Source: an uncultured Planctomycetales bacterium | GTDB taxonomy: Bacteria > Planctomycetota > Phycisphaerae > UBA1845 > Fen-1342 | Direction of reading: 5' to 3' | DNA: 64,000 nucleotides | Assembly: GCA_964462635.1 (NCBI GenBank) | Contig: CAYWYJ010000002.1 | Span: 4,047-68,046 of the forward strand | Part shown: in pieces, positions 16,966 to 35,513 of the stretch | Numbering within the stretch: the stretch's first letter is position 1 | Layout: each line of letters starts with the position of its first letter | The notes under the pieces: model-generated | What the model was told of the DNA's origin: nothing | What the model saw: only the letters and a program-made list of their open reading frames with translations | Database searches by the model: none | Program-made: the position numbers and the translations under genes

Positions 16966-16971
16966 GCCCCG

Positions 16972-19191
16972 TTACCTCCGCCGCACAAACCACACCCCCA
17001 GCCCCACGACCAGGGCCACCGCCGGCCACACCCCGACCAGCATCCACGGCAGGACGGCCGCGGTGGACTCGCTGAGATTGCTCAGCCGCGGCAGCTCCGC
17101 GCGCCGCGGACCCACCGCGATGCGGTCCGCCTCTCCGGTCAACCAGTGCAGCGCGTTGATGAGCAAGTCGCTATTGGCCGGGTAGAGCGTGCCCAGCACC
17201 AGCGCGTTGCCGACCTGTTGGAGTCCCGTGGCCTGCGCGATGGTGTCGCTCGCGAACAGCTCGCTGCCGAAGACCACGACTTTCTGCCCCGCCTCGTTCG
17301 TCGCGGCCACCGCCAGGGGAAACGGCGCGGCGATGTCGGCCGGGCCCGGCCGGATACCCTGGCGTCGCTTGAGCTGGTCCTCGATCTGATTCAGGTCGCC
17401 GCAGGCCCAGGCGTCCACCGTGTCGCGCAGCTCCGCGACCGTCTCGATGGTCAGGCCCGTCGGCCGGCTCGCCGCCGGGGCCACGCGCAGCGGACAGGCC
17501 AGCACCAGCGCGGCGCGGTCGGTCTTCAGCGGGGCCCCGATGGCATGATCGGTGAAGCGCAGCACATTGTCCGTCGTCAGGAGCTGCGGCTGCCGCCCGG
17601 CGGGGACCCACTCGCCCGGTTTCTCCGGGTGCGGCATGAAGCTCAGGCACAACGCCTGGTTCACCACCTCAATCCCCCACGTCGACTTCAAATAGTCGCC
17701 GAAGTCGTACGGCGGGCCGGCGCCCGGGATGGGGAGTTCCGGCGGACGCCAGCCGGCCATGAACACGGCCCGGCCGGCGGCGGCGACCGCGTTCAGGATG
17801 ATCTGCCGGTCTTCGTCGCTGAGGGTCGGTGGCGGCATTGGGTTGCGCGGATCGCGCGGCGCGGGTTCCGGTGCGAAGATGACGTAGACGGTGCGGGCCG
17901 CCCCCTCGACCGTCGGCGGGGACTTCTCCTCCGCGACGTTCCATTCCGCGGTCTGGAAGTTGGCCTTCTCCAGGAGGTAGTTCAGCTCCTGATACGGCGC
18001 CCGCGGCAACTGCCGCAGGTTCATCATGTTCATCTGGCTGAAATCGGGTGTCAGCAGCGGCGTGCCCCCCACGCGCACGAAGACCACCGCCGTCTTCTCT
18101 TTCTGCGTCAGTTGGAGAATGGCCGACGAGATCGCGGCCTCGCCCGCGAAGACGCGGTCCTCGCCGTCGGGGCCGACCGGGGCGTCGGGGGCGGCGGGCG
18201 TGGGCCACAGGTCCCAGAACGGGATGACACGGGCTTCGCGCTCGCTTTCGACGAGCACGGGCGGACTGGTGCGCCAGCGTGTCAGCCCGTTGTAGAGCTC
18301 CTCGACCTTCACGTCCTTCAGGTCCTTGGTCTGGTCCAGGAGTCCGCGGACGGCGGTGAGCACGGGCTCATAGCGGGCGGAAGCCTGCTGGAAGAACCCG
18401 CGCAGCTCGTCGGGCAACCCGGGCAGCGACAAGCCCTCGCCGCCCATCCACGCCGCCGCGTTTTGCAGCAGCAGTTCCACGTCGCCGAGGTACTGGCGGG
18501 CGTCGCGGACGGCTTGCCCGAACCGCGGCACTTCGCTCTTTTGCAGTTCGTCGAGCGTCCGCACGATGTCCTGCGCGTCGCGGGCGATCTCGCGGAAGTT
18601 GTTGCGGATGATGGCCAGATTGCGCTGCCGCGCCAGCGTCGGCTCGGCCTGCATCAGCTCATCCAGCCGGGCGAACTCCGCGGCCCCCAGCGACTGAACC
18701 TGGCTGTTGACCGGCCCGAAGGCGGCCAGGGCCTCCTGGTGCGGGCGGGCCTCGTCGCGGTAGGCCGGCAGCTCCAGCAACCGCTGGAGCAGCTTGTCGG
18801 TCTCGGCCTTCTGGAGCGACGGGTCCAGCAGGTACGTGCTGACCCGCGCCCCGCCGGCCTGCTCATACAGCTCCAGCAGGTCCTGCAACGCCCGCCGGCG
18901 ACGCTGCCCCAGCACATCGCGCTTGTCCGGCTCGGCAAACACCCCGGTGATGCGGATGTTCAGGTCCAGCCCGCGGAGCAGCTGCACCGAACGCGAGCTC
19001 AGGCTGTTGCGCCCGGTCCCCGTCAGATCCGCTTGCGCCGGGAACCGCCCGCCGAGCCAGATCACCACCACGCACACCAGAACGGCCAGCCCGATCTGCA
19101 CGAGCACGTTGACGCCGAACAGCAGCCGGCGTCGCGGCGCGTCGAGGGGCCGGGGAGCCGCGGGCCCCGTCGTGGGGACGCTTACCGCCAT
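16972..19191 (-). CDS. GldG-like ABC-transport auxiliary component
   Basis: Start chosen at MAVSVPTTGP... (ATG 19191, overlapping the permease stop by 10 nt). It has an N-terminal TM (LLFGVNVLVQIGLAVLVCVVVIWL) and a C-terminal TM (VLPWMLVGVWPAVALVVGLGVWFVRRR). The listed 921-aa ORF extends spuriously into the permease gene. Confidence 0.8.
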   Translation of the reverse strand: MAVSVPTTGPAAPRPLDAPRRRLLFGVNVLVQIGLAVLVCVVVIWLGGRFPAQADLTGTGRNSLSSRSVQLLRGLDLNIRITGVFAEPDKRDVLGQRRRRALQDLLELYEQAGGARVSTYLLDPSLQKAETDKLLQRLLELPAYRDEARPHQEALAAFGPVNSQVQSLGAAEFARLDELMQAEPTLARQRNLAIIRNNFREIARDAQDIVRTLDELQKSEVPRFGQAVRDARQYLGDVELLLQNAAAWMGGEGLSLPGLPDELRGFFQQASARYEPVLTAVRGLLDQTKDLKDVKVEELYNGLTRWRTSPPVLVESEREARVIPFWDLWPTPAAPDAPVGPDGEDRVFAGEAAISSAILQLTQKEKTAVVFVRVGGTPLLTPDFSQMNMMNLRQLPRAPYQELNYLLEKANFQTAEWNVAEEKSPPTVEGAARTVYVIFAPEPAPRDPRNPMPPPTLSDEDRQIILNAVAAAGRAVFMAGWRPPELPIPGAGPPYDFGDYLKSTWGIEVVNQALCLSFMPHPEKPGEWVPAGRQPQLLTTDNVLRFTDHAIGAPLKTDRAALVLACPLRVAPAASRPTGLTIETVAELRDTVDAWACGDLNQIEDQLKRRQGIRPGPADIAAPFPLAVAATNEAGQKVVVFGSELFASDTIAQATGLQQVGNALVLGTLYPANSDLLINALHWLTGEADRIAVGPRRAELPRLSNLSESTAAVLPWMLVGVWPAVALVVGLGVWFVRRR

Positions 19192-19904
19192 CGTCGTGAC
19201 TCCACCACCTTGACCGTAAGGAACAGGAACAACGCCGCGACGGCCAGGAAGAAGACCACCGCGTCGGTTTCGACCTGCCCGCGGGCGAACTGCGCGAAGC
19301 GGCCCATGATGTTGAGCTGGGCCAGGACTTCCCGCTGCCAGCCCTCGAACTGACGCACCAGGTTGTAGACCGACAGCACCAGCAGCATCAGCGGCATGGC
19401 GCCCAGCATCCACGCGACCGCCTGGTCGCGCGTCAGGCTGCTGGCGAACAGGCTGTACGCCGCGAACGCCACCCCGACGAGCACGAGCCCGAGGTACGTC
19501 GCCAGCACCTCGCCCCAATCGGGGTTGCCGAACACTTCCATCAGCAGCGGGTAGACAAGCGTGCCGGCCAGCAGCACGCCGTAGAATCCCAGCGTGGCCA
19601 CATACTTGCCCAGCACCACCGCCGCGTCCGACACCGGGGCGGTCATCAGGGTCTCGAAGGTCCCGCTGCGGTATTCCTCGCTCAGCGCCCGCATCGTCAT
19701 CGCCGGCACCACCAGCGTCAGGACGAACGGCGCCCACATGAAGATGTCCCGCAGCGTGGCCGGCTTGCCGGGGCCGAAGGCCTCCGCGTTCCAGATCGCG
19801 ATCGCCCCCGTCACCAGCCAGAAGCCCGCGAGCACGATGTAGCCGACCGGCGAGCAGAACAGTGACAGCAGTTCGCGTTGTGCAATAGCCAGCGTGTGGC
19901 GCAT
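19182..19904 (-). CDS. ABC-2 type transporter permease (GldF-like)
   Basis: 240 aa polytopic membrane protein between the ATPase and the GldG-like gene. Confidence 0.85.
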   Translation of the reverse strand: MRHTLAIAQRELLSLFCSPVGYIVLAGFWLVTGAIAIWNAEAFGPGKPATLRDIFMWAPFVLTLVVPAMTMRALSEEYRSGTFETLMTAPVSDAAVVLGKYVATLGFYGVLLAGTLVYPLLMEVFGNPDWGEVLATYLGLVLVGVAFAAYSLFASSLTRDQAVAWMLGAMPLMLLVLSVYNLVRQFEGWQREVLAQLNIMGRFAQFARGQVETDAVVFFLAVAALFLFLTVKVVESRRWR

Positions 19905-19928
19905 GGCCGGTCCCTCACCTCCCCGTCA

Positions 19929-20888
19929 CTACGGCCGCGCCGCCCGGGCGGCGAGCACGGCCTTGACAAAGAAGTCCTCCAGCGATGGCAGCTCCTGGTG
20001 CAACTCGCGGACCGCCCACCCGCGGGCCGCTGCCAGTCCCGCCAGCGGCTCCAACGCCTCCCCGGCCGCCGCCGCGTCCACCCGCGCCCAGTCCCCGTTA
20101 GCCGTCGTCCGCACGTCGTGCAGGCCGGGCAGCTTGCGCACCGCGTCGGCCACGTCCCCCGCCGGCGCCTTCAGGACCGCGTGCAGGCGGCGTTGGCCGG
20201 CGGTCTGGGCCTTCAGCTCGTCCACCGTCCCCGCCGCGATCAGCCGCCCCTCGTGAATAATGACGATGCGGTGGCAGATGGCCTCGACCTCGGACAGCGT
20301 GTGGCTGGAGAACAGGATCGGGTGGTCGCCGGACAGCTCGCGGAGCAGGCCCCGCGTCTCCCGCACCTGGGCCGGGTCCAGTCCGACCGTCGGCTCATCC
20401 AGAATCAACACCTTCGGGTTGTGCAGCAGGGCATCCGCCAGCCCCACCCGCTGCCGAAAGCCGCGGGACAACTGCCCAATGGGGCGATCGACGGCGTCCC
20501 GCAGCCAGCAGCGCTCGACGACCCGCGCGATCGCCGCCTCGCGCTGCGAACGGTCGAGCCCGCGCAGCTTCCCGCGGAACCTCAGGTACTCGCGGACGCG
20601 CATTTCGGGATACAGCGGGACCGCTTCCGGTAGGTACCCGACGACCGAACGGACCGCGAGCGATTGGGTCAGGACGTCGTACCCCGCCACCGTCGCCGTA
20701 CCCGAGGTGGGCGGCATGTAGCCCGTGAGGATGCGGATGGTCGTGGTCTTGCCGGCCCCGTTGGGGCCGAGGAAGCCGACGATTGTCCGCTCGGCGACCG
20801 TGAACGAGATGCGGTCCACCGCACACCGGCTCCCGTAGTATTTCGAGAGGTTCCGAACGTCGATCACGCGCAAGTCCTCCCGCGTCAC
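19929..20888 (-). CDS. ABC transporter ATP-binding protein
   Basis: Walker A GPNGAGKTTT, signature LSRGFRQR and Walker B VLILDEPTVGLD. Confidence 0.95.
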   Translation of the reverse strand: MTREDLRVIDVRNLSKYYGSRCAVDRISFTVAERTIVGFLGPNGAGKTTTIRILTGYMPPTSGTATVAGYDVLTQSLAVRSVVGYLPEAVPLYPEMRVREYLRFRGKLRGLDRSQREAAIARVVERCWLRDAVDRPIGQLSRGFRQRVGLADALLHNPKVLILDEPTVGLDPAQVRETRGLLRELSGDHPILFSSHTLSEVEAICHRIVIIHEGRLIAAGTVDELKAQTAGQRRLHAVLKAPAGDVADAVRKLPGLHDVRTTANGDWARVDAAAAGEALEPLAGLAAARGWAVRELHQELPSLEDFFVKAVLAARAARP

Positions 20889-21120
20889 ACGTTCACAGAC
20901 CGGCCCAGACTTCGAGTCCGGTCACGATTCCTGGGGATGCCCGTTCCACACGGGACGCCGGCGGCACCCCTCCCCGGGCCCGTGCGACCCGGGGCGGCTC
21001 GCTGGTGCGAACGAGTGGAGCGATTCTATGGACCCCCGCCGGCCTGTCAAGCAACCACCGGCCCCCGGCACGGGGCGGGCGGCGCGTCCGCTTGCCCCGC
21101 CACGGCGCGCAGCGCGCACG

Positions 21121-24100
21121 TCAGGCGTGGACCGGCCGGGTCGCGTCGGCGTGGCCGGCCGGGGTGGGCACCGTCGCCGCCGACATCGTGGCGGCGCGGG
21201 CGGTGCGCCGGTGCAGCCGGTGACTCAGGTATCGGCCCAGGGCCCGGACGGCCTGGTCGGCGGAGCGGAAGACCGGGACGCCGGCGGCCCGCAGCGCCCG
21301 CACCAGCGCGTCGTACCGCGGCCCGCTGTCCACGCTGACAACCACCGGCTTGCGGGCCTCCGCGAACAGCTTGGGCAGCCGCTCCGCCAGCGAACCGGGT
21401 TTGCCGATCTCGTCCGGCGTCGTGAGCATGGCCGGCGTCAGAGGGACGAACGATGCGACGACGGCGTCCACGTCCGCACTGTCGAGCATTACCCGGACGC
21501 ACTGCTCGTACGCCTCGTCCGTGGCCATTGGCGTCAGGTCGAGCGGGTTGCGGGCGTTGACGAGTGCGTCGAGCTTGAAGCGGCCCAGCACGGCCGAAAG
21601 CTGCTGCTTCGAGGCGTCGGAAAGCGCCCCGATCTCGACCGCGAAATCCGGCCCGAGCACGTTGTCGGCCATGCCGACCGTCTCGAAGCCCGCGTTGCTG
21701 ATGGCCCCGATCCGCGGCCCCTCGGCCGGCTTGGCGTGCAGCGCCGTGGCCAGATCGACGAGCTGCTCGAACTCCTTGAACGTCTCGACGACGATCGCGC
21801 CGGCGTTGGCCGTCGCGGCCTGGCACACGTCGTAGTCGCCGGCGACCGAGGCCGTGTGCCCCGCCGCCGCCGACCGCCCCGACGCCGTCCGCCCCGCCTT
21901 GTAGAAGATCACCGTCTTGCCCGCGTCGGTCAGCCGCCGAATCGCCCGCACCAGATCGAGCCCGTCGTAGTTGTTGAACCCCTCGGCATAGACGGCGATG
22001 ACGTCGATGTCGTGGCGCTCGCCCACCGCCTGCACGCAATCGGCGATGCTCAGGTCGATCTGGTTGCCGAGCGAAATCGTCAGTGCCGGATCGAGCGTCT
22101 CCAGGTTGCTCAGCCGGCTGACGATGAACGCGCCGCTTTGCGACACCAGGGCGACCCGCCGCGGCGGCGCCGTCCAGCGCGTGTCAAGCTTGGCCTGCGG
22201 AATGAAGAACGTGTCGTAATGCCCCGGCCGCGACTGGATGCCCATGCAGTTGGGCCCCAGGAACACGGGGCCGCCGTCGGGCAGCTCGCGGCCGGCGGCG
22301 ATCGCGCTGCGAATCTGCTTCTCGATCTCCTCCGACCCCTCCTTCTCGCCCATGCCGCCGGGGATGACGACCGCGGCCCCGACCTTGCCGCTGGCGATCA
22401 CGTCGCGGGTGATCTGCGGCATGGCGGTAGCGGGGGCGGCGATGACGAGCATGTCCACCGGCTCGGGCAACGCCGCCACGTTCGGCACGCAGCGGACCCC
22501 GTCGATCTGCTGCTCGTTCTCCTTGACCACGTAAAGGTGGTCCGCCGGGAACCCGCAGGTCTTGATGTTGTTCAGGATGATGCGGCCGAAGTTCATCGCC
22601 GTACTGGACACGCCCAGGACGCCGATGGCCCGCGGCTCCAGCAATCGGCGGACCTTCTCGATCGGGCGGACCGCGGGGCGTTTGGCGGCGGGCCCGAGCC
22701 GTCCGCGGCCGTCGAGCGGGACCATGTGCTGCTGGCGGAACGCGAAGGGGTTGACCTCCAGCTCGGCCACGTCCGGGCCTTCGATGCCGCGATCGACGCA
22801 GAAGTGCCGCGCCAGCGAGATGAACGCCCGGAAGCAGCGCAGGAGCTCGCCGTCGGAGACGATCCGCCGGTGGCCGCGCGCCCGCCCCGACAGCACGTCG
22901 TACGCCGCGGTCTGCCGGAACAGCTCCAGGAACTCCTCGGCGGTGGTGTCGGTGGCGCAGGCCTTGGCGACGGCAACGCCGGGGCGCATCTTGCTGGCCA
23001 GGTATTCGGTGTCGATGCCGCCGAGGCCGGCCGCGATGACCGGGCCGAACTCGCGCGTGGCCCGCACGCCGACGAACAGCTCGTTGCCGAAGCCCGGCTG
23101 CGTGCGCTCGACGAACTCGACGACGAGGACGCCCTCGACGCGGGCGGTGCCGGCGTGGCGCTGAATCAGCCGCTCGATCTCGCGGCGGACCACGTCGTGG
23201 CTCTTGGGCACGAAGGCGATGCCGTCGGCGTCGCTCTTGTGGATCACGTCCTGCGAGACGATCTTCAGCACGACGCGATCGCCGGGGAACTGGTCCAGGG
23301 CTTCGTGTGAAATCAGATTGCCGGTGGGGATGAAGACGTAGCGCGGCGGGGAGATCGCGCCGATCAGCTCGATGAGCATGTAGACTTCGTGCTCATAGAG
23401 CGGCCGACGGCCCTCTTCGTACGCCCGTAGTAGCGTCCGTTCGAACGCCGTTGCCTCCGCCCCGGTCAGGCGCGTCTCGCCCGTGTCGAGGTCGTCGAAC
23501 GTGGGTGGGGTCGGCGGCTCTTCCCGGAGCAACGCTTCGATCGGCAGGGTGTCGATCCACGCGCGGACGGCCCGCGACGTGCCGCCGCGCTGCAACCCGT
23601 CGCGGTACGCCGCCGCCGCGTTCCGCCCCAGCCGGAACGCCCGCCGATTCACCTGGATGATCTTCTCGCCCTTGGTGGCGAACATCTCGGCGACGGCGTC
23701 CTCCAGTTCCTGCGGCTCGATCTCCAGGAACAGCGAGCCGGCGCCGAGGGTGACGATGTTGGCCGCCAGGACCGAGCCGGCCGCCTTGGCGAGCCGGTCG
23801 GCGTCCAGCAGGACGTGTCGCGGGAAGGCGGCGATGCGGTCGAGCACCTGCTCGATCGCCGGGTAGTTCTCGATGTTCACGAAGGCGTTGGTGCTGACGA
23901 CCATGACCCCGTCGTCGCGCAGGTACTGGACGTAGCGCAGGGCCTCCAGCGGTTCCACCGAGAAGATCAGGTCCGCCTGGCCCGCCGGGATCAGGTCGCT
24001 GAAGATCGGATGGTCGGCGATGCGCAGGTGTGACTGCACCGCCCCCCCGCGCTGGGCCATGCCGTGCACTTCGGCCTGCTTGAGGTGGAGGTTGCGGCGC

Positions 24101-24180
24101 AGCGCCGCGATGGAGATGGCCCGCGCGATGGACAGGATGCCCTGCCCGCCGACGCCCGCGAGAATGAGGTTCTGTTCCAC
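21121..24180 (-). CDS. Fusion protein: indolepyruvate/2-oxoacid ferredoxin oxidoreductase beta(gamma-like) subunit + ADP-forming acyl-CoA synthetase (ATP-grasp, CoA-binding and ligase-CoA domains)
   Basis: One uninterrupted frame. The N-terminus NLILAGVGGQGILSIARAISIAA...EVHGMAQRGGAVQSHLRI is IorB/POR-gamma-like. An ATP-grasp-like segment follows (YEHEVYMLIELIGI..VVLKIVSQDVIHKSDADGIAFV). Next is a CoA-binding segment (RAIGVLGVSSTAMNFGRIILNNI...VDMLVIAAPA), then VALVSQSGAF and the phospho-His loop AAGHTASVAG. The likely start is GTG at 24180; the upstream ATG at 24276 lies inside a repeat element. Confidence 0.85.
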   Translation of the reverse strand: MEQNLILAGVGGQGILSIARAISIAALRRNLHLKQAEVHGMAQRGGAVQSHLRIADHPIFSDLIPAGQADLIFSVEPLEALRYVQYLRDDGVMVVSTNAFVNIENYPAIEQVLDRIAAFPRHVLLDADRLAKAAGSVLAANIVTLGAGSLFLEIEPQELEDAVAEMFATKGEKIIQVNRRAFRLGRNAAAAYRDGLQRGGTSRAVRAWIDTLPIEALLREEPPTPPTFDDLDTGETRLTGAEATAFERTLLRAYEEGRRPLYEHEVYMLIELIGAISPPRYVFIPTGNLISHEALDQFPGDRVVLKIVSQDVIHKSDADGIAFVPKSHDVVRREIERLIQRHAGTARVEGVLVVEFVERTQPGFGNELFVGVRATREFGPVIAAGLGGIDTEYLASKMRPGVAVAKACATDTTAEEFLELFRQTAAYDVLSGRARGHRRIVSDGELLRCFRAFISLARHFCVDRGIEGPDVAELEVNPFAFRQQHMVPLDGRGRLGPAAKRPAVRPIEKVRRLLEPRAIGVLGVSSTAMNFGRIILNNIKTCGFPADHLYVVKENEQQIDGVRCVPNVAALPEPVDMLVIAAPATAMPQITRDVIASGKVGAAVVIPGGMGEKEGSEEIEKQIRSAIAAGRELPDGGPVFLGPNCMGIQSRPGHYDTFFIPQAKLDTRWTAPPRRVALVSQSGAFIVSRLSNLETLDPALTISLGNQIDLSIADCVQAVGERHDIDVIAVYAEGFNNYDGLDLVRAIRRLTDAGKTVIFYKAGRTASGRSAAAGHTASVAGDYDVCQAATANAGAIVVETFKEFEQLVDLATALHAKPAEGPRIGAISNAGFETVGMADNVLGPDFAVEIGALSDASKQQLSAVLGRFKLDALVNARNPLDLTPMATDEAYEQCVRVMLDSADVDAVVASFVPLTPAMLTTPDEIGKPGSLAERLPKLFAEARKPVVVSVDSGPRYDALVRALRAAGVPVFRSADQAVRALGRYLSHRLHRRTARAATMSAATVPTPAGHADATRPVHA

Positions 24181-24243
24181 GTCACCAACCCTCGGCGACC
24201 CGGTGTCCGGGCCGCGCACCGACTCTCTCTTGACCGCGGATTC

Positions 24244-24423
24244 ACCACAGAGGCACAGAGACGCAGAAAAGAACAATCAGATGCCACTTAGATTGCGGGA
24301 TCCCGCAACAGCTGCGGCGTGCAGCCCGACGGCCGCGAGCGTGGAAGCGCGATAGAGACGAATGGCGTCCGCATTCTCCGTTTCCCTGGTCTCTTCTTCT
24401 CTGCGCCTCTGTGCCTCTGTGGT
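24244..24423. repeat. Nested inverted repeat in the iorA-iorB spacer
   Basis: Arms accacagaggcacagagacgcagaaaagaa (24244-24273) and ttcttctctgcgcctctgtgcctctgtggt (24394-24423) are complementary at 28 of 30 positions. The perfect 16-nt palindrome ttgcgggatcccgcaa (24293-24308) sits inside the 120-nt spacer. Confidence 0.8.
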
Positions 24424-24459
24424 TATCTGTTTCCTCTCTCACGGTGGGGCGCGCGACCG

Positions 24460-26082
24460 TCAGGCCGGCGTCGCCGCCTTGCCCGCCGCCGGCTCCGCCT
24501 TGGCCTTGCGGCGGTTGTGGATGCACTCGCGTTGGGCCACGATGACCGACAGGCCGCGGTGCTCGATCGCCCGCTTGATGGTCTGCACGCTCTGCTCGTG
24601 GTTCTTGGCCAGCGGTTCGAGCAGGTGCATCTGGTCCGGCTTCACGCCCAGGCCGCGGAGCAGGTCGATGAGCTGCTGCCCCGCCGCCATCGTCTCCTGC
24701 CCGCCGGTCATCGCCACCGTGGCATTGTCCAGGACGAAGACGGTGATGTCCGCGTCGGCGCGAATCGCGCCGATCAGCGGGGTCATCCCCGAGTGCGTGA
24801 ACGTCGAGTCGCCGATCGTACACAACACGGGGTACGCCCCCGCCTGGGCCGCCCCGTGCGCCATCGCGATCGACGCCCCCATGTCCACGCACGAGTGGAC
24901 GGCGCGGTACGGCGGCAGCACGCCCAGCGTGTAGCAGCCGATGTCGCTGAACAGGCACGCCTCGGGGTACGACGCCGTCGCGTCGATGATCGCCTTGAAC
25001 GTGTCCGCGTGCGGACAGCCGCGGCACAACGCTGGCGGACGGCCCGTCAGGTCAGTCAGGGCAGTATGGCCGGCGGTATACGGCTGGCCGAGTGCTGTGG
25101 CGACGAGATCGGGCGTGAGTTCGCCGTCGGGCGGCAGCGCCCCGGTCAGCTTGCCCTTCACCGCCTTGCCCGCCAGCCCGAGCAGCCCGTTCAGCCGCTT
25201 CTCCAGGAACGGGTAGCCCTCTTCCACAATCAGGATCTCGTCACAGTGGTTCACGAGCTGGCGGATCAGCTCCACCGGCGGGGGATACGTGCCCAGTTTG
25301 AGCAGCGACAGCTCGTCGCGGCCCGCCAACGCTTCGCCCACGTAATTCGCCGCAATCCCCGCCGCCAGCACCCCGCGTCGCCCCGCCAATCGCAACGTGT
25401 TCAGCGGGTGCTTCTCCGACCACTCCCGAAGCTGTGGTTGCATCTCGATCAGGCGGCGAAATCGCCGGCGGGCGTTGGACGGCACCAGCGTCCAGGCGTT
25501 CGGATCGGGGGCTAGGCGGCGACCGTTGCCGGCGTCCGTCTTCTCGGGCGGCCGGGTGTGTACGTTGGCCCGGCTGTGCGACAGGCGCGTGACGACGCGG
25601 ACCATGACCGGCAGCCCGAACCGCTCGGACACGTCGAACGCTTCACGCGTCAGGTCGTACGCCTCCTGCTGGTTGGCCGGCTCGAAAACGGGAATCTGGG
25701 CGAACTCAGCGTAGTACCGGCTGTCCTGCTCGTTCTGCGACGAGTGCATCCCCGGGTCGTCCGCCACCACCAGCACGATCCCGCCGTTGACCCCCGTCAG
25801 GGCCGAGTTGATGAACGGGTCGGCGGCGACGTTCAGGCCGACGTGCTTCATGGAGACGAGGGCCCGCTTGCCGGCATATGACATGCCGAGGGCTTCCTCG
25901 TAGGCAACCTTCTCGTTGGCCGACCAGCGGGCCCACACGCGGCCGCCGTCCCGCGCCCGCTCCGCGATGAACTCGAAGATCTCCGTGGCCGGGGTGCCGG
26001 GGTAGGAGAACGCTCCGCCAATATGGGCGTGCAAGGCGGCCATGCCGACCGCCTCGTCGCCGAGCAGCAGTTCCACGCTCAT
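24460..26082 (-). CDS. iorA: Indolepyruvate ferredoxin oxidoreductase subunit alpha (TPP-binding)
   Basis: MSVELLLGDEAVGMAALHAHIGGAFSYPGTPATEI, PPALCRGCPH and the TPP motif GDSTFTHSGMTPLIGA....VFVLDNATVAMTGGQ. At 540 aa it ends without an obvious C-terminal CxxCxxCxxxCP ferredoxin domain. Confidence 0.9.
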   Translation of the reverse strand: MSVELLLGDEAVGMAALHAHIGGAFSYPGTPATEIFEFIAERARDGGRVWARWSANEKVAYEEALGMSYAGKRALVSMKHVGLNVAADPFINSALTGVNGGIVLVVADDPGMHSSQNEQDSRYYAEFAQIPVFEPANQQEAYDLTREAFDVSERFGLPVMVRVVTRLSHSRANVHTRPPEKTDAGNGRRLAPDPNAWTLVPSNARRRFRRLIEMQPQLREWSEKHPLNTLRLAGRRGVLAAGIAANYVGEALAGRDELSLLKLGTYPPPVELIRQLVNHCDEILIVEEGYPFLEKRLNGLLGLAGKAVKGKLTGALPPDGELTPDLVATALGQPYTAGHTALTDLTGRPPALCRGCPHADTFKAIIDATASYPEACLFSDIGCYTLGVLPPYRAVHSCVDMGASIAMAHGAAQAGAYPVLCTIGDSTFTHSGMTPLIGAIRADADITVFVLDNATVAMTGGQETMAAGQQLIDLLRGLGVKPDQMHLLEPLAKNHEQSVQTIKRAIEHRGLSVIVAQRECIHNRRKAKAEPAAGKAATPA

Positions 26083-26486
26083 GGCATCGGGCTCCAGTGG
26101 GCCGCCGACCCGCCAGCGGCGGCGAACGATCAGCTCCCGGGCACGCGGCGCCGCGGGGGAGCCGAAAGCTCAGGCTCCTTCAAGATAATGGATGCTGCCC
26201 GTGCGTTCAAACCGTACCGCCGGGGTGCCCGATGCCCGCAAGAGCGTGCTCCTCCACAGGAGGGGGCACCAACGCCCCGCGCGGCCCCGTCGTGCCAGTG
26301 CCCTCGCCGTCAGCTCAGTTCGTGCGCGAGCCGCACAGCCGGGCACCGACCACGCGAACATCGACGGTTCGCCGCTTGTGCTCGGCGGCGTGCGCCTTAT
26401 GATGGTCCCGTATTGGGCCCCGATCGGCGCCCGGTGCCCGCGGGGCAGGTCATCTCCAACGGTCCCTGAGATAAGGAGGACGCCTC

Positions 26487-28028
26487 ATGGTCACAACACG
26501 GATCGCGCATTGCGGATGGGCGTTGTTGGTGCTCGGCCTGTGCGGCGCCGGCGTGTGGGCGCAGGAGGCCGCGAACCCCGCCGGGGCGGATGAGGCGGAC
26601 CGCGTCGCCCGACTGGAGTCGCTCCTGGCCGCCCAGCAGCAGAAGATCGACGCGTTGCGGCAGCAGGCCGCGGCGGCGGCCCAGCAGGACACGGACCGGT
26701 CGCGCGTCGACCAGATGAAGCAGCAGATTCGTGAGGTGCTGAGCGAGCGGGAGTTCCGCGAGAGCCTCATGCCGTCCACCCTCCAGGCGGGGTATGACCA
26801 CGGCTTCTTCATCCGCAGCAGCGACGACAAGTTCTCCATGAAGTTCAACTGGCAGATGCAGTTCCGCTGGACGCACTACGGCACGCGCGGCCAGAACCGC
26901 TACCTGTCCCCCGGCTTCCGCCGGCACGACCGCACCGGCTTCGACATCGTGCGGATGAACTTCGACGTCAGCGGCCACGCGTATGACAAGGACCTGACGT
27001 ACTTCATGGAACTGGGGGCCGCGGCGCCCGGCGGCTACAACGTCGGGCTGAACTACGCCTGGGTGGACTACCGCTTCTCCGACGCCTTCCACTTCCGGGC
27101 CGGGCTGATCCGGGCCAAGAGCACGCGGGCCAACGTGACGTCCAACGCCCTGTACCAGATGGTCGAATCGCCGACCATGGACGCCGTCTTCGGACTCAAC
27201 GATGGCCTCGGCGTCGAGTTCTGGGGCCAGCTCGCCGACAAGAAGGTCGAGTACTTCATCGACGTGCTCAATTCGGTCGACAACCCGGCGACGCGAACGA
27301 TCACGACCGATGAGAACCTCTATGCCGTCGGGCACGACAACAACCCGGCCCTCCTGGCCCGCGTCGTCTGGCACGCGCTGGGCGGCCAGTGCCGTACGCC
27401 CCTGCCCGATGCTCCGGCGCACTTCGCCGACTTCTGTGACATGGCCCACCACATGGAACCGGGGTTGGACCTCGGCTTCCATTACATGTTCAACGAAGAC
27501 TGGCACGACGGCACGCTGCGCATTCCGTACCCGCGCAAGAACGTCTTCCGCGCCGGCGGCTTCGGCCTGGCCAGTTCCGAGGGCCTCCAGATCAACCAGT
27601 TCGGCTTGGACGCGGCGTTCAAGTACCGGGGTTTTTCCGCGACGGGCGAGTACGTCGTCCGCGTGCTCGATGTTCGGGAAGGCAGCCGGCCGCCTTTCAC
27701 GCCGCTGTACCAACTCACTGGTGACGACTCCACCAACGCCCAGCACGGCGCCTACGTGCAGTGCGGCTACTTCCTGCCCATTCCGGGCTGGGAAGACAAG
27801 TTCGAGGTCACGGCCCGCGTGGGCGGCATCTCGACCCTGGCCGGCGGGACGGAAGGCACCTGGGAGTACGCCGGCGGCTTCAATTACTACATCGAGGGCC
27901 ACCGGGTGAAGCTCCAGACCGACCTCGTCAAGATCTCCGAGGTCCCGATTTCCAACCCGACCTGGAGCTTGGCCAACGTGAACGACGACGCGCTGATCTG
28001 GCGCGTGCAGCTCCAGGTCGCGTTCTAA
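26487..28028 (+). CDS. Outer-membrane porin, phosphate-selective porin O/P-like
   Basis: Strong RBS (taaggagg). Signal peptide ...LGLCGAGVWAQE, an N-terminal coiled coil (RLESLLAAQQQKIDALRQQ), beta-rich alternating sequence and the C-terminus WRVQLQVAF. Confidence 0.8.
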   Translation: MVTTRIAHCGWALLVLGLCGAGVWAQEAANPAGADEADRVARLESLLAAQQQKIDALRQQAAAAAQQDTDRSRVDQMKQQIREVLSEREFRESLMPSTLQAGYDHGFFIRSSDDKFSMKFNWQMQFRWTHYGTRGQNRYLSPGFRRHDRTGFDIVRMNFDVSGHAYDKDLTYFMELGAAAPGGYNVGLNYAWVDYRFSDAFHFRAGLIRAKSTRANVTSNALYQMVESPTMDAVFGLNDGLGVEFWGQLADKKVEYFIDVLNSVDNPATRTITTDENLYAVGHDNNPALLARVVWHALGGQCRTPLPDAPAHFADFCDMAHHMEPGLDLGFHYMFNEDWHDGTLRIPYPRKNVFRAGGFGLASSEGLQINQFGLDAAFKYRGFSATGEYVVRVLDVREGSRPPFTPLYQLTGDDSTNAQHGAYVQCGYFLPIPGWEDKFEVTARVGGISTLAGGTEGTWEYAGGFNYYIEGHRVKLQTDLVKISEVPISNPTWSLANVNDDALIWRVQLQVAF

Positions 28029-28181: not shown

Positions 28182-29150
28182 TCAATAGCCCGCCAGCGGC
28201 ACGATGTGGCGGTACTCGTAGTCCGGGTCGTTCGGATCGTTCCACCACGCCAGCGGGTCGCCGGGGTCATTTCCCGAGGCGCTCTTCCACCCCAGCCCGC
28301 GCGACCCCTGGGTCGTGTCCGTCCGCAGCGACGCCGCATGACCGTCGAGAAACAGCAGGTTGTTCCGCATCCACCCGCGGTGCCAGCCGCGACGTGGGAT
28401 CCGCAGCCACTGGGCCGAGTCGAACGGGTCCTCGTAGATGATGATGAACGTGCTGGCGTGCTTCATCCGCTGCACACGCAGGAACGCGTTGGCCCGCTGG
28501 AGCCACCGCACCGGTTGCTCGTCTTTGAACGCCGCCCGTGCCCAGTTCCGCGCGAAGTGATAATTGCAGTCGTAGCTGTTCCCGCTGAACCAATACAGGT
28601 TCGGCGCGTTGGGGAAATCGCCGCCGTACCACATCCAGAACCCCCCGTCATCCGACGGACACGCGAACACCGGCATGTTCCGCACGATCTCGAACAGCGG
28701 ATCCTCCGGCGGCACGTCGTAGTCCGGCAGGTCGGGGTAGATGTACGGGTTGAACGGCCGGCCGCGCGGCGTGTCGCGGTACGGCGGCTGCACGTAGCCC
28801 CACCACTGGTCCGAACCGGGCGCATCCTGACGACCCGGGTGCCCGCCGTAGTAGAACCCGTGCAGCGACGGATGTACCTCACCGGGGATGACCTCGTTGC
28901 GCTTCTCGAACGGGAACCAGTCGTTCTCGTCGTTGAAGTAAGAGTGCATGGCGATGCTGATCTGCATCAGGTTGGCCAGGCACTTGGTCTGCTTGCCCTG
29001 CTCGCGGGCCTGCCCCAGCGAAGGCAACAGGATCGACATCAGCAGAACGATGATTGCGATGACCACCAGCAACTCGATGAGCGTGAACCCCGCCGCGCGC
29101 GCACAGGCCGGCGTTGCCTCCGCCTCGGGCATCCCTCTTCGTAGAACCAT
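28182..29150 (-). CDS. DUF1559 protein with prepilin-type N-terminal cleavage/methylation domain
   Basis: [41 protein letters not shown]. The start is taken at [11 protein letters not shown]... (29150); 29132 is an alternative. The listed ORF begins at 29297. Confidence 0.85.
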
Positions 29151-29336
29151 GCGGCGCACCCGGCACCAAGCCCCCCGAAACTCACCCGGTTCTATTGTAG
29201 GGAGCCGGGCAACGCCTCTGTCGCCGCCGGGAGCGCCGACCTCAGCGCGCCCGACGATCTGCGGGCGCTGTCTGCGACGGCGGAAACAGGCGGCCACAAC
29301 GTTCCCGTGACCGATTTCGCTCGAATGCGATGGCCC

Positions 29337-29821: not shown

Positions 29822-30730
29822 ATGCGTCCGCACCGCTCAATATCCGCGACGCACCGCCGGGGGCGACGGGGTTTCTCGCTGCCCGAACTCCTGGTCGTGA
29901 TGGGGATCATCGCGCTGCTGCTGGCCGTTTTGCTCCCCCCGTTGCGGGCGGCGCGGGAGCAGGCCATCGCGACCGCGTGCCGCGCCCAACTCCGTGAGTT
30001 GGGGAACTCGCTCCAGAGCACGCTGAACGAATATGGGTTCTATCCCCTGTGGGACGACGGCGGTTCGCCGTACCGCTTTTCGTGGGTCGACGTGCTGCTT
30101 CAGCAGCGGGAGCTGCTGAATCGCAATGTGGCGTACTGCCCGGCCGATCCTCGTCCCGGGTTCATCAACGCGGACCGTGGCCGACACTATCGTGTCTTCT
30201 ATCCGGGGCAGCCCGGCGTGTATGGGATGGACTACAGCTACGGCATCGGGGTGCCGCTCTCGGCCGGCGGCTGGGCTTGGCGCCCGGGCTTCGGCGACGA
30301 CCAGCACCGGCGTTTCCTCCAAGACCACGACCGGTTCCCGGCGCAGCGGGTCCTGGCGGCGGACGCAAACTGGAGCACCATCTTCAACTTGAGCGGCGAC
30401 GTGCTGAAGGATCACCACTGGACCTACCCGACGCAGTACGACAACACCGTCGAATGGCGTCACCCGGGTTTGGCGGCCAACGTGTTCTTCCAGGATAGCC
30501 ACGTCGAGCGATTGGCCTACAACCTGACGGCGGCCGAGCCGATCAACACCGGCCGGGCCTTTCTGTGGTACCCCAACGAGCCCATCCACGTCGGGCCTGA
30601 GGACTTCTACAACGGGAACTTCTACCCCAACGTCCCGCCCGTCGATCCGGTCACGGGCGAAGGTTTCTTCCCGCGTGAGCTGGTTCCCGGCTGGTACACG
30701 GCGAACTCGCTCTGGACCGTCACCAAGTAG
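29822..30730 (+). CDS. DUF1559 protein with prepilin-type N-terminal cleavage/methylation domain
   Basis: RRGFSLPELLVVMGIIALLLAVLLPPLRAAREQAIATACRAQLRELG. Confidence 0.85.
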   Translation: MRPHRSISATHRRGRRGFSLPELLVVMGIIALLLAVLLPPLRAAREQAIATACRAQLRELGNSLQSTLNEYGFYPLWDDGGSPYRFSWVDVLLQQRELLNRNVAYCPADPRPGFINADRGRHYRVFYPGQPGVYGMDYSYGIGVPLSAGGWAWRPGFGDDQHRRFLQDHDRFPAQRVLAADANWSTIFNLSGDVLKDHHWTYPTQYDNTVEWRHPGLAANVFFQDSHVERLAYNLTAAEPINTGRAFLWYPNEPIHVGPEDFYNGNFYPNVPPVDPVTGEGFFPRELVPGWYTANSLWTVTK

Positions 30731-32999: not shown

Positions 33000-33157
33000 G
33001 ACCTCCTGCTGTTGTCCGGTAAAACGACGTAAGGCCGCATCAAGCACCCACACCGCGCGCCGACATGCCCGGCGGCGTGCCGACGCGCTCTCTCACGTTC
33101 TGCCTCCCGGGCGGCGGACGCCACGCGGCGCTCGTCCCCGGCGAATCCCCCGTGGCA

Positions 33158-35089: not shown

Positions 35090-35513
35090 GGCTTGGGCCT
35101 CCAAATGTCCTTTTTGAGCAGGGACGTGGTGTCGCATCACTCGCCAGCGCAACGACGGGACCGGGGGGAACCCCGGCCGATGCAAGGCCGCTTTCCGACC
35201 TCCGCGCGCATTATAGACCCTGAGCATCCCCCGCCGCAACGCAATCTTCTCCCCTTCGCCGCTCCCTCGGAAGCCGGCGACCGACGGCGTAGCCGCCGGT
35301 CGCCGGACCCGCCACCCGAGGGACGGAACGCCCAGCCCCGCACTCGCGTGCGGGGTTCTGATAAGCGTTCCAGGTTGTTGGCCCGCCGGCCACTGCAGGG
35401 ATCCGGGAATATGGGACGCCGCACGGCAGGCCGCTCGCGTGACACTCGCCCGCGGCTGAACGGCTGCGCATGTGCGCCGATGTCCTGGCACACCGGGGCC
35501 GCCGGAGGGTCGT

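What the first reader, a model, noticed from the sequence alone, without database searches (positions are those of the whole stretch)
21121..24180. Single-ORF fusion of IorB with a complete ADP-forming acyl-CoA synthetase, next to iorA
Indolepyruvate:ferredoxin oxidoreductase (IorAB) makes arylacetyl-CoA from arylpyruvates. ADP-forming acyl-CoA synthetases (ACD/ACS) convert such thioesters to the acid plus ATP. In hyperthermophilic archaea these are separate enzymes acting consecutively (established biochemistry, recalled). Here the IorB-like domain is covalently joined through a ~60-aa linker to ATP-grasp, CoA-binding and ligase-CoA domains in one 1019-codon frame. The phospho-histidine loop is conserved (AAGHTASVAG).

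This would channel 2-oxoacid oxidation directly to substrate-level phosphorylation. The ACD part is ordered beta-like (ATP-grasp) before alpha-like (CoA-binding). That is permuted relative to the alpha-then-beta order I recall for characterised fused ACDs. The partner IorA (540 aa) appears to lack the C-terminal 2x[4Fe-4S] domain.
Basis: partly seen in the sequence, partly recalled or inferred. Interest (0 to 1): 0.65.

Follow-up and report, generated by a model that had tools for sequence, protein, structure and literature searches.

The report
IorB fused to ADP-forming acyl-CoA synthetase
A real, conserved bacterial gene fuses the small subunit of an aromatic 2-oxoacid oxidoreductase to the ATP-making acyl-CoA synthetase that acts next in the pathway; the fusion is common in metagenomes but I found no paper that describes it.

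Summary
Window 21121-24180 (minus strand) is one 1019-codon frame. It contains an IorB/POR-gamma domain, ATP-grasp_5, CoA_binding_2, Succ_CoA_lig and the ligase-CoA subdomain. Both ACD catalytic histidines are present (H314 in VIHKSD, H775 in AAGHTAS). iorA (540 aa) lies directly upstream.

It is not a sequencing artefact:
- At least 120 protein clusters (90% identity level) of about 1000 aa share the architecture. They come from Phycisphaerae/Planctomycetota and Acidobacteriota.
- Independent assemblies and one metatranscriptome contig cross the junction without indels.
- In Aminicenantes, Holophagae, Myxococcota, Bdellovibrionota and Spirochaetota the same genes are adjacent but separate (iorA-iorB-acd).
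- Two distant fusions with different linkers (one from Zixibacteria) suggest at least three independent fusion events.

- The ATP-grasp-first order [3-4-1-2-5] is already known. It occurs in Nitrosopumilus Nmar_1309 (PDB 9Y43) and in hundreds of stand-alone bacterial ACDs.
- The "60-aa linker" is a conserved helical IorB tail followed by about 22 flexible residues.
- The short IorA, with one [4Fe-4S] site and no ferredoxin domain, was found in all 22 bacterial loci checked, including Bacteroides. It is not specific to the fusion.

The most likely function is arylpyruvate oxidation coupled to substrate-level ATP synthesis in one complex. Substrate channelling and physiological direction are untested. 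I rate it a new variant of a known kind, of moderate interest.

The parts
21121..24180 (-). iorB-acd fusion CDS (1019 aa plus stop), starting at GTG 24180
   Evidence: ORF; domains; start position supported by homologue N-termini and by frame-breaking indels upstream in related strains; codon coordinates verified
23623..24150 (-). IorB / OFOR gamma (POR, domain III) domain, residues 11-186
   Evidence: PF01558 at 6e-32; NF005324 IorB equivalog 267 bits against cut-off 222; Foldseek matches OFOR gamma subunits 8ys5_B, 3on3 and 3g2e with TMt 0.80-0.84
23530..23622 (-). Conserved helical C-terminal tail of the IorB part, residues 187-217 (Y192 and G199 invariant; GGTSRAVR.WI nearly invariant)
   Evidence: Conservation across 41 fusions; AF2 helices 172-197 and 202-211 with pLDDT ~87-90; similar tails on unfused 245-271-aa IorBs in L007, L008, L010 and L013
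23464..23529 (-). Variable, probably flexible linker, residues 218-239
   Evidence: Coil in the AF2 model; block-mean pLDDT ~77 (residues 221-230) and ~57 (231-240); no consensus residue at most positions
22705..23463 (-). ACD beta-like ATP-grasp part (subdomains 3-4), residues 240-492; second catalytic His314 (VIHKSD) at 23239-23241
   Evidence: PF13549 at 1e-24; aligns to ACD1 beta 4xyl_B, including the VVHKSD histidine; H314 invariant in 41 sequences
22234..22632 (-). CoA-binding Rossmann subdomain 1, residues 517-649
   Evidence: PF13380 at 6.5e-14; colinear with 4xyl_A and 9y43
21754..22161 (-). Subdomain 2 (Succ_CoA_lig) with the swinging phosphohistidine loop, residues 674-809; His775 (AAGHTAS) at 21856-21858
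   Evidence: PF13607 at 8e-34; aligns to the Nmar_1309 AASHTGS loop; H775 invariant; loop 764-782 has low pLDDT, as expected for a mobile loop
21205..21753 (-). Ligase-CoA subdomain 5, residues 810-992, followed by a variable, poorly modelled tail (993-1019)
   Evidence: TIGR02717 covers to the equivalent of residue 984; colinear with 9y43 to residue 975; pLDDT falls below 50 from residue 993
24460..26082 (-). iorA: TPP-binding catalytic subunit, 540 aa. It has the TPP motif GDS...N (from residue 424) and four invariant Cys (C353, C356, C383, C520) for one [4Fe-4S] cluster. It has no C-terminal ferredoxin domain.
   Evidence: POR_N plus TPP_enzyme_C; TIGR03336 positions 3-540 of 595; Cys conservation 22/22; no CxxCxxCxxxC motif
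24181..24459 (.). Unusually long iorA-iorB spacer (279 bp). It contains an inverted 25-nt repeat pair (24246-24270 and 24397-24421) and a ~144-bp segment that is absent in related strains.
   Evidence: Sequence; repeat search (0 expected by chance); skip 24261->24406 and contig breaks. In L001 and L002 the same two genes are 36 bp apart or overlap.

Best explanation
iorA and iorB-acd form a two-gene module. It encodes an IOR-type 2-oxoacid:ferredoxin oxidoreductase whose small (gamma, domain III) subunit is covalently joined to a complete, catalytically competent ADP-forming acyl-CoA synthetase of subdomain order [3-4-1-2-5].

Proposed reaction sequence:
1. IorA holds TPP and one proximal [4Fe-4S] cluster. 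Together with the IorB domain it oxidatively decarboxylates an arylpyruvate (from Phe, Tyr or Trp transamination), using CoA, to give arylacetyl-CoA and CO2. Electrons pass to an external ferredoxin or flavodoxin.
2. The tethered ACD exchanges CoA for phosphate. It passes the phosphoryl group through His775 on the swinging loop to His314 in the ATP-grasp domain, and then to ADP.
3. The products are arylacetate and ATP, and CoA is regenerated next to the oxidoreductase.

Both IOR and fused ACDs are dimers, so the likely assembly is (IorA)2(IorB-ACD)2.

Shown here: the gene structure, the domains, the conservation of catalytic residues, the conserved synteny, and recurrent fusion. Inferred: the aryl substrate, the catabolic direction, the quaternary structure, and any kinetic advantage from acyl-CoA or CoA hand-over.
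For: - Domains and family scores.
- Catalytic residues: H314 and H775 are invariant in 41 fusions. They align with the catalytic histidines of ACD1 and Nmar_1309.
- IorA competence: TPP motif and four Cys invariant in 22/22 loci.
- Purifying conservation over the full length: 62-97% identity in at least 120 clusters of ~1000 aa.
- Conserved iorA-fusion synteny in an Acidobacteriota complete genome and in a 9.3-Mb contig.
- The same order, iorA-iorB-acd, as separate genes in at least 13 loci from six or more other lineages.
- Fusions in three separate ACD clades with different linkers: ~60 aa in the window, ~25 aa in P0152 and ~5 aa in P0143 from Zixibacteria.
- Expression: metatranscriptome contigs of a ~95% relative cover both genes and the junction.
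- Biochemical precedent: P. furiosus ACS2 uses phenylacetyl-CoA and indoleacetyl-CoA, and its alpha gene is in the IOR operon (PMC3942289). ADP-forming ligases next to OFOR genes in Peptostreptococcales are active with phenylacetate, hydroxyphenylacetate and indoleacetate (PMC13285125).
- Aryl context: in Bacteroides the same short-IorA/IorB subfamily is followed by a PaaK-like phenylacetate-CoA ligase.
Against: - No enzyme of this clade has been assayed.
- Substrate specificity cannot be read from sequence. IorA scores below the TIGR03336 equivalog cut-off (510 against 651 bits), partly because the ferredoxin domain is missing.
- The ACD scores far below every NCBIfam equivalog cut-off, so its acyl specificity is open.
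- The closest solved homologue with the same domain order, Nmar_1309, works physiologically in the acyl-CoA-forming direction. Direction therefore cannot be inferred by homology.
- No aminotransferase or ferredoxin gene lies next to the module in the window.
- Fusion alone does not prove channelling.
- AF2 gave only moderate confidence (pTM 0.65), and I could not inspect any IorB-ACD interface.
Confidence: 0.65

Rival explanations
1. Same complex, opposite physiological direction. The ACD activates exogenous arylacetates (or other organic acids) at the cost of ATP->ADP. The IOR then reductively carboxylates the acyl-CoA to the 2-oxoacid for amino-acid synthesis. This is an acid-salvage route of the kind I recall being described for methanogens and rumen bacteria.
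For: - Both reactions are reversible.
- Nmar_1309, the closest solved enzyme with the same [3-4-1-2-5] order, acts as a synthetase in vivo.
- In Bacteroides the equivalent third gene is an AMP-forming PaaK-like ligase, which can only activate acids.
- The organism lives in sludge, where aryl acids are available.
Against: - ADP-forming enzymes linked to OFORs are, in every characterised case cited here, the ATP-conserving end of amino-acid fermentation (PMC3942289, PMC13285125).
- Reductive carboxylation needs strongly reduced ferredoxin.
- The window carries secreted-type M28 peptidases, which fits a peptide-degrading lifestyle. This is weak evidence.
Confidence: 0.2
2. The module is an IOR homologue by sequence only. 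It actually handles other 2-oxoacids (branched-chain, pyruvate, 2-oxobutyrate or 2-oxoglutarate), with the ACD matched to that acyl-CoA. This rival concerns the substrate only and can be combined with either direction.
For: - IorA is below the equivalog cut-off.
- The ACD part matches acetate, 3-hydroxypropionate and 4-hydroxybutyrate ligase models about equally and all far below their cut-offs.
- OFOR and ACD specificities are known to be broad (PMC3942289).
Against: - The IorB part passes an IorB equivalog cut-off.
- The IorA architecture, with alpha and beta fused in one chain, is the hallmark of the IOR cluster (PMC13285125).
- Close IorB relatives (50-56% identity) in Bacteroidales sit next to PaaK-like ligases.
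Confidence: 0.25
3. The single frame is an assembly or sequencing artefact: a lost stop codon or a frameshift between adjacent iorB and acd genes.
For: In many other lineages the two genes really are separate and only 4-70 nt apart, or overlapping. A single error could therefore mimic a fusion.
Against: - At least 120 independent 90%-identity clusters from NCBI, ENA, JGI and Logan assemblies have the same ~1000-aa protein. These include a finished 4.1-Mb Acidobacteriota chromosome.
- Contigs from four independent runs, one of them RNA, cross the junction with substitutions only.
- The junction region itself is conserved at the protein level.
Confidence: 0.01
4. The ACD-like part is not a catalyst. 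It would be a CoA- or acyl-CoA-sensing regulatory or scaffolding module, as I recall for the ACD-like N-terminal region of the acetyltransferase PatZ/Pat.
For: PatZ structures appear among the sequence and fold matches.
Against: - Both catalytic histidines and the nucleotide- and CoA-binding subdomains are invariant across the family.
- There is no GNAT or other effector domain.
- The best matches are true synthetases.
Confidence: 0.04

Closest known systems
Pyrococcus/Thermococcus IOR plus ACS2 (ADP-forming acyl-CoA synthetase II)
   Same: The same two consecutive reactions: arylpyruvate -> arylacetyl-CoA -> arylacetate + ATP. The genes are linked: PF0532 (ACS2 alpha) is in the IOR operon (PMC3942289). 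The protein families are the same.
   Different: The archaeal enzymes are separate proteins. Their ACS is an alpha2beta2 heterotetramer ([1,2,5]/[3,4]). From my recollection, archaeal IorA carries a 2x[4Fe-4S] ferredoxin domain; the only tool support for that is the unmatched ~55 C-terminal positions of the IOR_alpha profile. Here IorB and a [3-4-1-2-5] single-chain ACD are one polypeptide, and IorA has a single cluster site.
[quoted passage not shown]
   Same: Colinear over query residues 274-975, with the same [3-4-1-2-5] subdomain order. The swinging-loop His and the ATP-grasp His are both present. It is the best sequence and fold match.
   Different: It is archaeal, stand-alone, and acts on 3-hydroxypropionate in CO2 fixation, in the synthetase direction. 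It has no OFOR partner or fusion. Sequence identity is ~19% in the Foldseek structural alignment.
Unfused bacterial iorA-iorB-acd operons (Aminicenantes, Holophagae, Vicinamibacterales, Myxococcota, Bdellovibrionota, Spirochaetota)
   Same: Same three functional units, same gene order, same ACD subdomain order and same short IorA. Some IorBs already carry the C-terminal tail.
   Different: A stop codon separates iorB from acd, with gaps from -29 to +69 nt. As far as I could find, these operons are equally uncharacterised.
OFOR-associated ADP-forming acyl-CoA ligases of Peptostreptococcales (C. difficile Cd3c-associated ligase)
   Same: A bacterial OFOR homologue next to a PF13607 ligase. The ligase was assayed and is active with phenylacetate, hydroxyphenylacetate and indoleacetate (PMC13285125).
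   Different: The genes are separate. The assayed ligase is associated with a VOR-like four-subunit OFOR (cluster 3), not an IOR. No fusion is reported.
Bacteroides-type iorA-iorB-paaK clusters
   Same: The same short single-cluster IorA (530 aa, matching IOR_alpha positions 2-537) and an IorB that is 50-56% identical.
   Different: The third gene is an AMP-forming PaaK-like ligase rather than an ADP-forming ACD, and it is not fused.
ATP-citrate lyase
   Same: An ACD-superfamily synthetase module covalently fused to a second catalytic module that handles the same acyl-CoA intermediate without releasing it (as described in PMC13018889). This is a precedent for fusion-enabled hand-over.
   Different: The partner domain is different (citrate-synthase homology), the subdomain order is different ([3-4-5-1-2]) and the chemistry is different.

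Membership tests
[quoted passage not shown] | Small subunit made of the OFOR gamma / POR (domain III) fold | tested here: met
   PF01558 at 6e-32; NF005324 IorB equivalog 267 bits against cut-off 222; the fold matches OFOR gamma subunits
[quoted passage not shown] | Large subunit with the OFOR alpha and beta modules in one chain (POR_N plus the TPP-binding domain) | tested here: met
   POR_N and TPP_enzyme_C in one 540-aa protein. The best family is TIGR03336 IOR_alpha at 9e-153, but 510 bits is below the 651-bit cut-off.
[quoted passage not shown] | TPP motif and Cys ligands for the proximal [4Fe-4S] cluster | tested here: met
   GDS-x26-N from residue 424; C353, C356, C383 and C520 invariant in 22/22 loci. 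Assigning these as cluster ligands is by analogy with PFOR, from my own knowledge.
[quoted passage not shown] | C-terminal 2x[4Fe-4S] ferredoxin-like domain on IorA, as in the archaeal prototype | tested here: not met
   The profile match stops at position 540 of 595, and there is no CxxCxxCxxxC motif. The same holds for all bacterial IorAs examined, including Bacteroides.
[quoted passage not shown] | Preference for arylpyruvates | not testable with these tools
   Only contextual hints: PaaK-like neighbours in the sister Bacteroides loci
NDP-forming acyl-CoA synthetase (ACD) superfamily | All five subdomains present: CoA-binding 1 and 2, ATP-grasp 3 and 4, ligase-CoA 5 | tested here: met
   PF13549, PF13380 and PF13607; TIGR02717 over the whole alpha-like part; full-length colinearity with 9y43
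NDP-forming acyl-CoA synthetase (ACD) superfamily | [quoted passage not shown] | tested here: met
   H775 in AAGHTAS aligns to AASHTGS of Nmar_1309 (His503); invariant in 41 sequences
NDP-forming acyl-CoA synthetase (ACD) superfamily | Second catalytic histidine in the ATP-grasp (beta) part | tested here: met
   H314 in VIHKSD aligns to VVHKSD of ACD1 beta (4xyl_B); invariant
NDP-forming acyl-CoA synthetase (ACD) superfamily | ADP- and Pi-dependent acyl-CoA cleavage, or the reverse ligation | not testable with these tools
   Requires an enzyme assay
[3-4-1-2-5] single-chain ACD subgroup (Nmar_1309 type) | ATP-grasp N-terminal to the CoA-binding, ligase and subdomain-5 parts in one chain | tested here: met
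   Domain order; colinear alignment with 9y43_A residues 32-687; order defined in PMC13018889

The most novel reading that the evidence does not exclude
The fusion, together with the conserved helical IorB tail, makes a dedicated 2-oxoacid-to-ATP machine. In this reading arylacetyl-CoA never equilibrates with the cytoplasm, and a small pool of CoA cycles between the OFOR domain-III CoA site and the ACD CoA site. That would be a natural case of direct channelling from a ferredoxin-dependent 2-oxoacid oxidation to substrate-level phosphorylation. It would have evolved independently at least three times in bacteria. In the unfused long-tail IorBs, the tail would act as the docking element for the ACD.
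Probability: 0.3. Interest if true: 0.65.

Novelty: new variant of a known kind. Interest (0 to 1): 0.5.

Why it matters
- Functional link. This is a Rosetta-stone fusion. It gives strong genomic evidence that bacterial IOR-type oxidoreductases and [3-4-1-2-5] ADP-forming acyl-CoA synthetases work as a unit. That extends a pathway known from hyperthermophilic archaea to Planctomycetota, Acidobacteriota, Zixibacteria and, as operons, several other phyla found in sludge and other metagenomes.
- Annotation. The protein is currently named only 'indolepyruvate oxidoreductase subunit beta'. Metabolic reconstructions from MAGs will therefore miss an ATP-yielding step.
- Experimental value. A covalently tethered complex is a convenient system for testing acyl-CoA or CoA channelling. 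No homologue closer than a 2-oxoacid:ferredoxin oxidoreductase alpha-subunit fragment was found for IorA among solved structures, so it could also be a route to a first IOR structure.
- Limit. The idea is an expected kind of evolutionary event, a fusion of consecutive enzymes. It is useful rather than revolutionary.

Tried and rejected
- Artefact hypothesis. I checked it against homologues, finished genomes and independent DNA and RNA contigs, and rejected it.
- 'Novel permutation of ACD'. Rejected after the PDB and literature comparison.
- 'Short IorA is a special feature of the fusion'. Rejected after scanning 27 loci for ferredoxin motifs (22 of them aligned for Cys conservation).
- Literature. 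Seven full-text searches for a description of the fusion found none. One further search failed on syntax. The library lacks most subscription journals, so absence is not proof.
It is not an unbiased census, and the fused versus unfused counts are illustrative only.
- Rfam. A scan of the whole window found nothing.
- Neighbouring genes. They are an ABC-2 transporter set, a porin, DUF1559 proteins and M28 peptidases. None gives a functional link to the module.
- Phylogeny. The NJ tree is a rough BLOSUM-distance tree without support values. The inference of independent fusions also rests on identity levels (36-37% against 54-97%) and on the different linkers.
- Not done. I did not run a multimer structure prediction or inspect inter-domain contacts, because the tools do not offer this. 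I did not use the remaining large protein searches, because they would not have changed the verdict.


Full report
**1. What is in the sequence**

On the minus strand an ORF runs 21121..24276. The first possible start (TTG 24276) lies inside an intergenic repeat. The real start is almost certainly GTG 24180, for four reasons:
- The IorB profiles begin there.
- Forty homologues start at exactly this position, with the consensus MEQNLILAGVGGQG.
- A GAGGG lies about 10 nt upstream.
- Related strains carry two separate 1-nt insertions at 24232 and 24236, which a coding region would not tolerate.

Pfam finds four domains in 1019-aa numbering, each far above its gathering score: POR (11-186), ATP-grasp_5 (253-492), CoA_binding_2 (517-649) and Succ_CoA_lig (674-809). 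NCBIfam puts the N-terminal part above the cut-off of an IorB equivalog (NF005324, 267 against 222 bits). It aligns the ACD alpha model TIGR02717 across the rest of the protein, to the equivalent of residue 984.

iorA lies upstream at 24460..26082 and encodes 540 aa with POR_N and TPP_enzyme_C domains.

**2. Is it an artefact?**

No.
- A search of 5.8 billion proteins returned 571 hits at E<=1e-10. All of the best 120 are 973-1062 aa long, 62-97% identical and carry the same four Pfam domains. They come from NCBI, ENA, JGI and Logan assemblies.
- Where named, they are called only 'indolepyruvate oxidoreductase subunit beta' and come from Phycisphaerae/Planctomycetota and Acidobacteriota (including Thermoanaerobaculia).
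- One sits on a finished 4.1-Mb Acidobacteriota chromosome and another on a 9.3-Mb contig. In both, a 539-549-aa iorA lies immediately upstream.
- Contigs from four independent runs (bioreactor sludge, sludge, hot spring, and one sludge metatranscriptome) tile 21000-26200. Inside the ORF they show substitutions only.
- The RNA contig covers 22997-23907, which includes the IorB/ACD junction, without gaps.
- Caveat: these were assembled Logan contigs, not raw reads.

**3. Are the catalytic parts intact?**

Yes.
- The ATP-grasp part aligns with ACD1 beta (4xyl_B), including VIHKSD against VVHKSD.
- H314 and H775 are invariant in an alignment of 41 fusions. They correspond to the two phosphoryl-relay histidines described for Nmar_1309, H69 and H503 (PMC13018889).
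- IorA keeps the TPP motif and four cysteines (C353, C356, C383, C520) that are invariant in 22 of 22 loci. By analogy with PFOR, from my own knowledge, these bind the proximal [4Fe-4S] cluster.

**4.

(a) Domain order. ATP-grasp first is the [3-4-1-2-5] order of Nmar_1309, which is characterised and was released in the PDB in 2025 (published 2026). The NCBIfam Archaeoglobus acetate-CoA ligase model is also colinear. An exhaustive HMMER scan of 1.84 billion representatives lists well over a hundred stand-alone 700-820-aa proteins that align colinearly with the ACD part (those tested were confirmed by Pfam). The order is therefore not a novelty of this protein.

(b) The linker.
- Residues 187-217 are conserved (Y192 and G199 invariant).
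- AlphaFold2 models them confidently as helices packed after the POR domain.
- Only residues 218-239 are variable and modelled as coil.
- Unfused IorBs come in a short form (186-207 aa) and a long form (245-271 aa; Holophagae, Bdellovibrionota, Anaeromyxobacteraceae, Myxococcales). The extra tail of the long form resembles window residues 186-235.
- The tail therefore predates the fusion and may be a docking element. That last point is an inference.

(c) The short IorA. It matches IOR_alpha profile positions 3-540 of 595 and has no CxxCxxCxxxC motif, so the ferredoxin domain is indeed absent. The same is true of every bacterial IorA I examined, including Bacteroides, Parabacteroides-type and Carboxylicivirga loci without any ACD. 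It is a property of this bacterial IOR subfamily, not of the fusion. By analogy with single-cluster OFORs (my own knowledge), electrons probably leave the proximal cluster directly to an external carrier.

**5. Evolutionary context**

It returned 80 loci. ORF analysis of these, together with the two loci, gave the following:
- True single-ORF fusions occur in Phycisphaerae and Acidobacteriota (L001-L004).
- In Aminicenantes, Vicinamibacterales, Holophagae, Bdellovibrionota, Bacteriovoracaceae, Myxococcota, Anaeromyxobacteraceae and Spirochaetes, iorB and a 720-820-aa [3-4-1-2-5] ACD are separate, adjacent and co-oriented. Spacers range from -29 to +69 nt.
- A Lutibacter locus has iorAB followed by an ACD of the opposite order, [1-2-5-3-4].
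- Several Bacteroidales loci have a PaaK-like AMP-forming phenylacetate-CoA ligase instead.

Among 50%-identity representatives, the full-length fusions are P0121, P0122, P0143 and P0152.
- In a rough NJ tree of the ACD part, the window, P0121, P0122 and the Acidobacteriota and Phycisphaerae proteins form one clade. A single unfused protein, P0123, is nested inside it.
- P0143 and P0152 sit in two other, distant clades among unfused ACDs.
- They are only 36-37% identical to the window protein and have quite different junctions: about 5 aa in P0143 and about 25 aa in P0152, against about 60 aa in the window.
- P0143 belongs to a cluster of 10 members seen on many contigs. One of these is a Zixibacteria MAG protein annotated 'hypothetical'.
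- I therefore infer at least three independent fusions. This is tentative, because the tree has no support values.

**6. Structure**

The AlphaFold2 model has mean pLDDT 77.6 and pTM 0.65.
- Confident regions: the IorB part, the CoA-binding subdomains and subdomain 5.
- Low-confidence regions: parts of the ATP-grasp domain, the mobile histidine loop (764-782) and the C-terminal tail.
- Foldseek ranks 9y43 first (TM 0.75 on the target), then ACD1 alpha chains. For the N-terminal part it finds OFOR gamma subunits (8ys5_B, 3on3, 3g2e).
- For IorA, no closer solved relative than a 2-oxoacid:ferredoxin oxidoreductase alpha fragment was found.

**7. Mechanism**

The best-supported reading is that IorA plus the IorB domain oxidise an arylpyruvate to arylacetyl-CoA, and that the tethered ACD converts this to arylacetate plus ATP, releasing CoA next to the oxidoreductase.

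The link between the two activities rests on:
- conserved synteny and repeated fusion, shown here;
- the P. furiosus precedent, where ACS2 uses phenylacetyl- and indoleacetyl-CoA and its alpha gene PF0532 is in the IOR operon (PMC3942289);
- the 2026 report that Peptostreptococcales OFOR genes neighbour ADP-forming ligases, one of which is active with phenylacetate, hydroxyphenylacetate and indoleacetate (PMC13285125).

In PFOR the gamma/domain III module contributes to CoA binding (my own recollection of the Moorella PFOR-CoA structure). If that is right, fusing it to the ACD brings two CoA sites together. Whether this gives real channelling is untested.

The physiological direction is also open. 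Both reactions are reversible, and the closest solved homologue works as a synthetase.

**8. Comparison with known systems, and novelty**

The components, their order of action and their operon linkage are all known. The [3-4-1-2-5] ACD type is known, and so is the short bacterial IorA. What appears undescribed is the covalent IorB-ACD protein as a widespread, recurrently evolved architecture. Seven full-text searches found no paper on it, but the library lacks most subscription journals. I therefore rate it a new variant of a known kind. It is of moderate interest (0.5) as a Rosetta-stone link, as an annotation correction and as a tractable system for testing channelling. It is not a categorically new mechanism.

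**9. Surroundings**

The module stands alone.
- Downstream is an ABC-2 type transporter set: ATPase 19929-20888, permease 19182-19904, a large DUF7088 protein 16972-19737 and a DUF4340 protein 14653-16965.
- Upstream are a porin-like gene (26487-28028), two prepilin-type/DUF1559 proteins, which from my own knowledge are typical of Planctomycetota, and two M28 peptidases.
- The iorA-iorB spacer is unusually long at 279 bp, against 36 bp or overlapping genes in L001 and L002. It contains an inverted 25-nt repeat pair and a ~144-bp segment that is missing in related strains.

Noticed in passing
window 24246-24421 (iorA-iorB spacer): There is an inverted pair of a 25-nt repeat (CACAGAGGCACAGAGRCGCAGARAA) at 24246-24270 (+) and 24397-24421 (-); 0 matches are expected by chance. 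Related strains skip 24261->24406 (144 bp), and their contigs break here. This looks like a small polymorphic hairpin or MITE-like insertion between the two genes. It also creates the spurious TTG-started 5' extension of the ORF.
   Followed up: partly
L007 5001-5768, L008 5001-5738, L010 2293-3063, L013 5001-5816: Unfused IorBs in ACD-linked operons of Holophagae, Bdellovibrionota, Anaeromyxobacteraceae and Myxococcales are 245-271 aa long. They carry a 50-80-aa C-terminal tail that resembles the 'linker' region of the fusion. Other unfused IorBs are 186-207 aa and lack it. The tail could be a docking element.
   Followed up: partly
L009 6132-10151 (Myxococcota MAG127): Downstream of iorAB, a single 1339-aa open frame joins a [3-4-1-2-5] ACD to HisKA, HATPase_c and Response_reg domains. 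It could be a real ACD-hybrid histidine kinase fusion, or an over-extended or frameshifted ORF in a 72% GC contig.
   Followed up: no
L071 6052-8568 (uncultured Clostridia MAG): An 838-aa protein combines POR_N, TPP_enzyme_C and POR (an IorA-IorB single chain). It lies directly downstream of a normal split iorA/iorB pair. This is a different fusion within the same enzyme family.
   Followed up: no
L046 5001-7663 (Lutibacter MAG): iorA-iorB is followed 17 nt later by a 686-aa ACD of the opposite subdomain order [1-2-5-3-4]. IOR-ACD linkage has therefore arisen with both ACD topologies.
   Followed up: partly
P0123 (775 aa, Logan contig of 4088 bp): This is an unfused ACD with its own Met start and a distinct N-terminus. 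It is 58% identical to the window's ACD part and falls inside the main fused clade in the NJ tree. It may be a secondary fission or the closest unfused sister.
   Followed up: partly
window 14653-20888 (minus strand): Immediately downstream of the fusion lies a four-gene set: ABC ATPase, ABC-2 permease, a 921-aa DUF7088 protein and a 770-aa DUF4340 protein. I recall this composition from gliding-motility-type GldA/F/G ABC systems. There is no evident link to the IOR module.
   Followed up: no
window 28182-29297 (-), 29822-30730 (+), 31053-33053 (-), 33158-35491 (-): There are two prepilin-type N-terminal methylation / DUF1559 proteins, which from my own knowledge are typical of Planctomycetota, and two large M28-family peptidases. 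The peptidases fit a peptide-degrading lifestyle. The window is ~70% GC and has no Rfam match at gathering thresholds.
   Followed up: no
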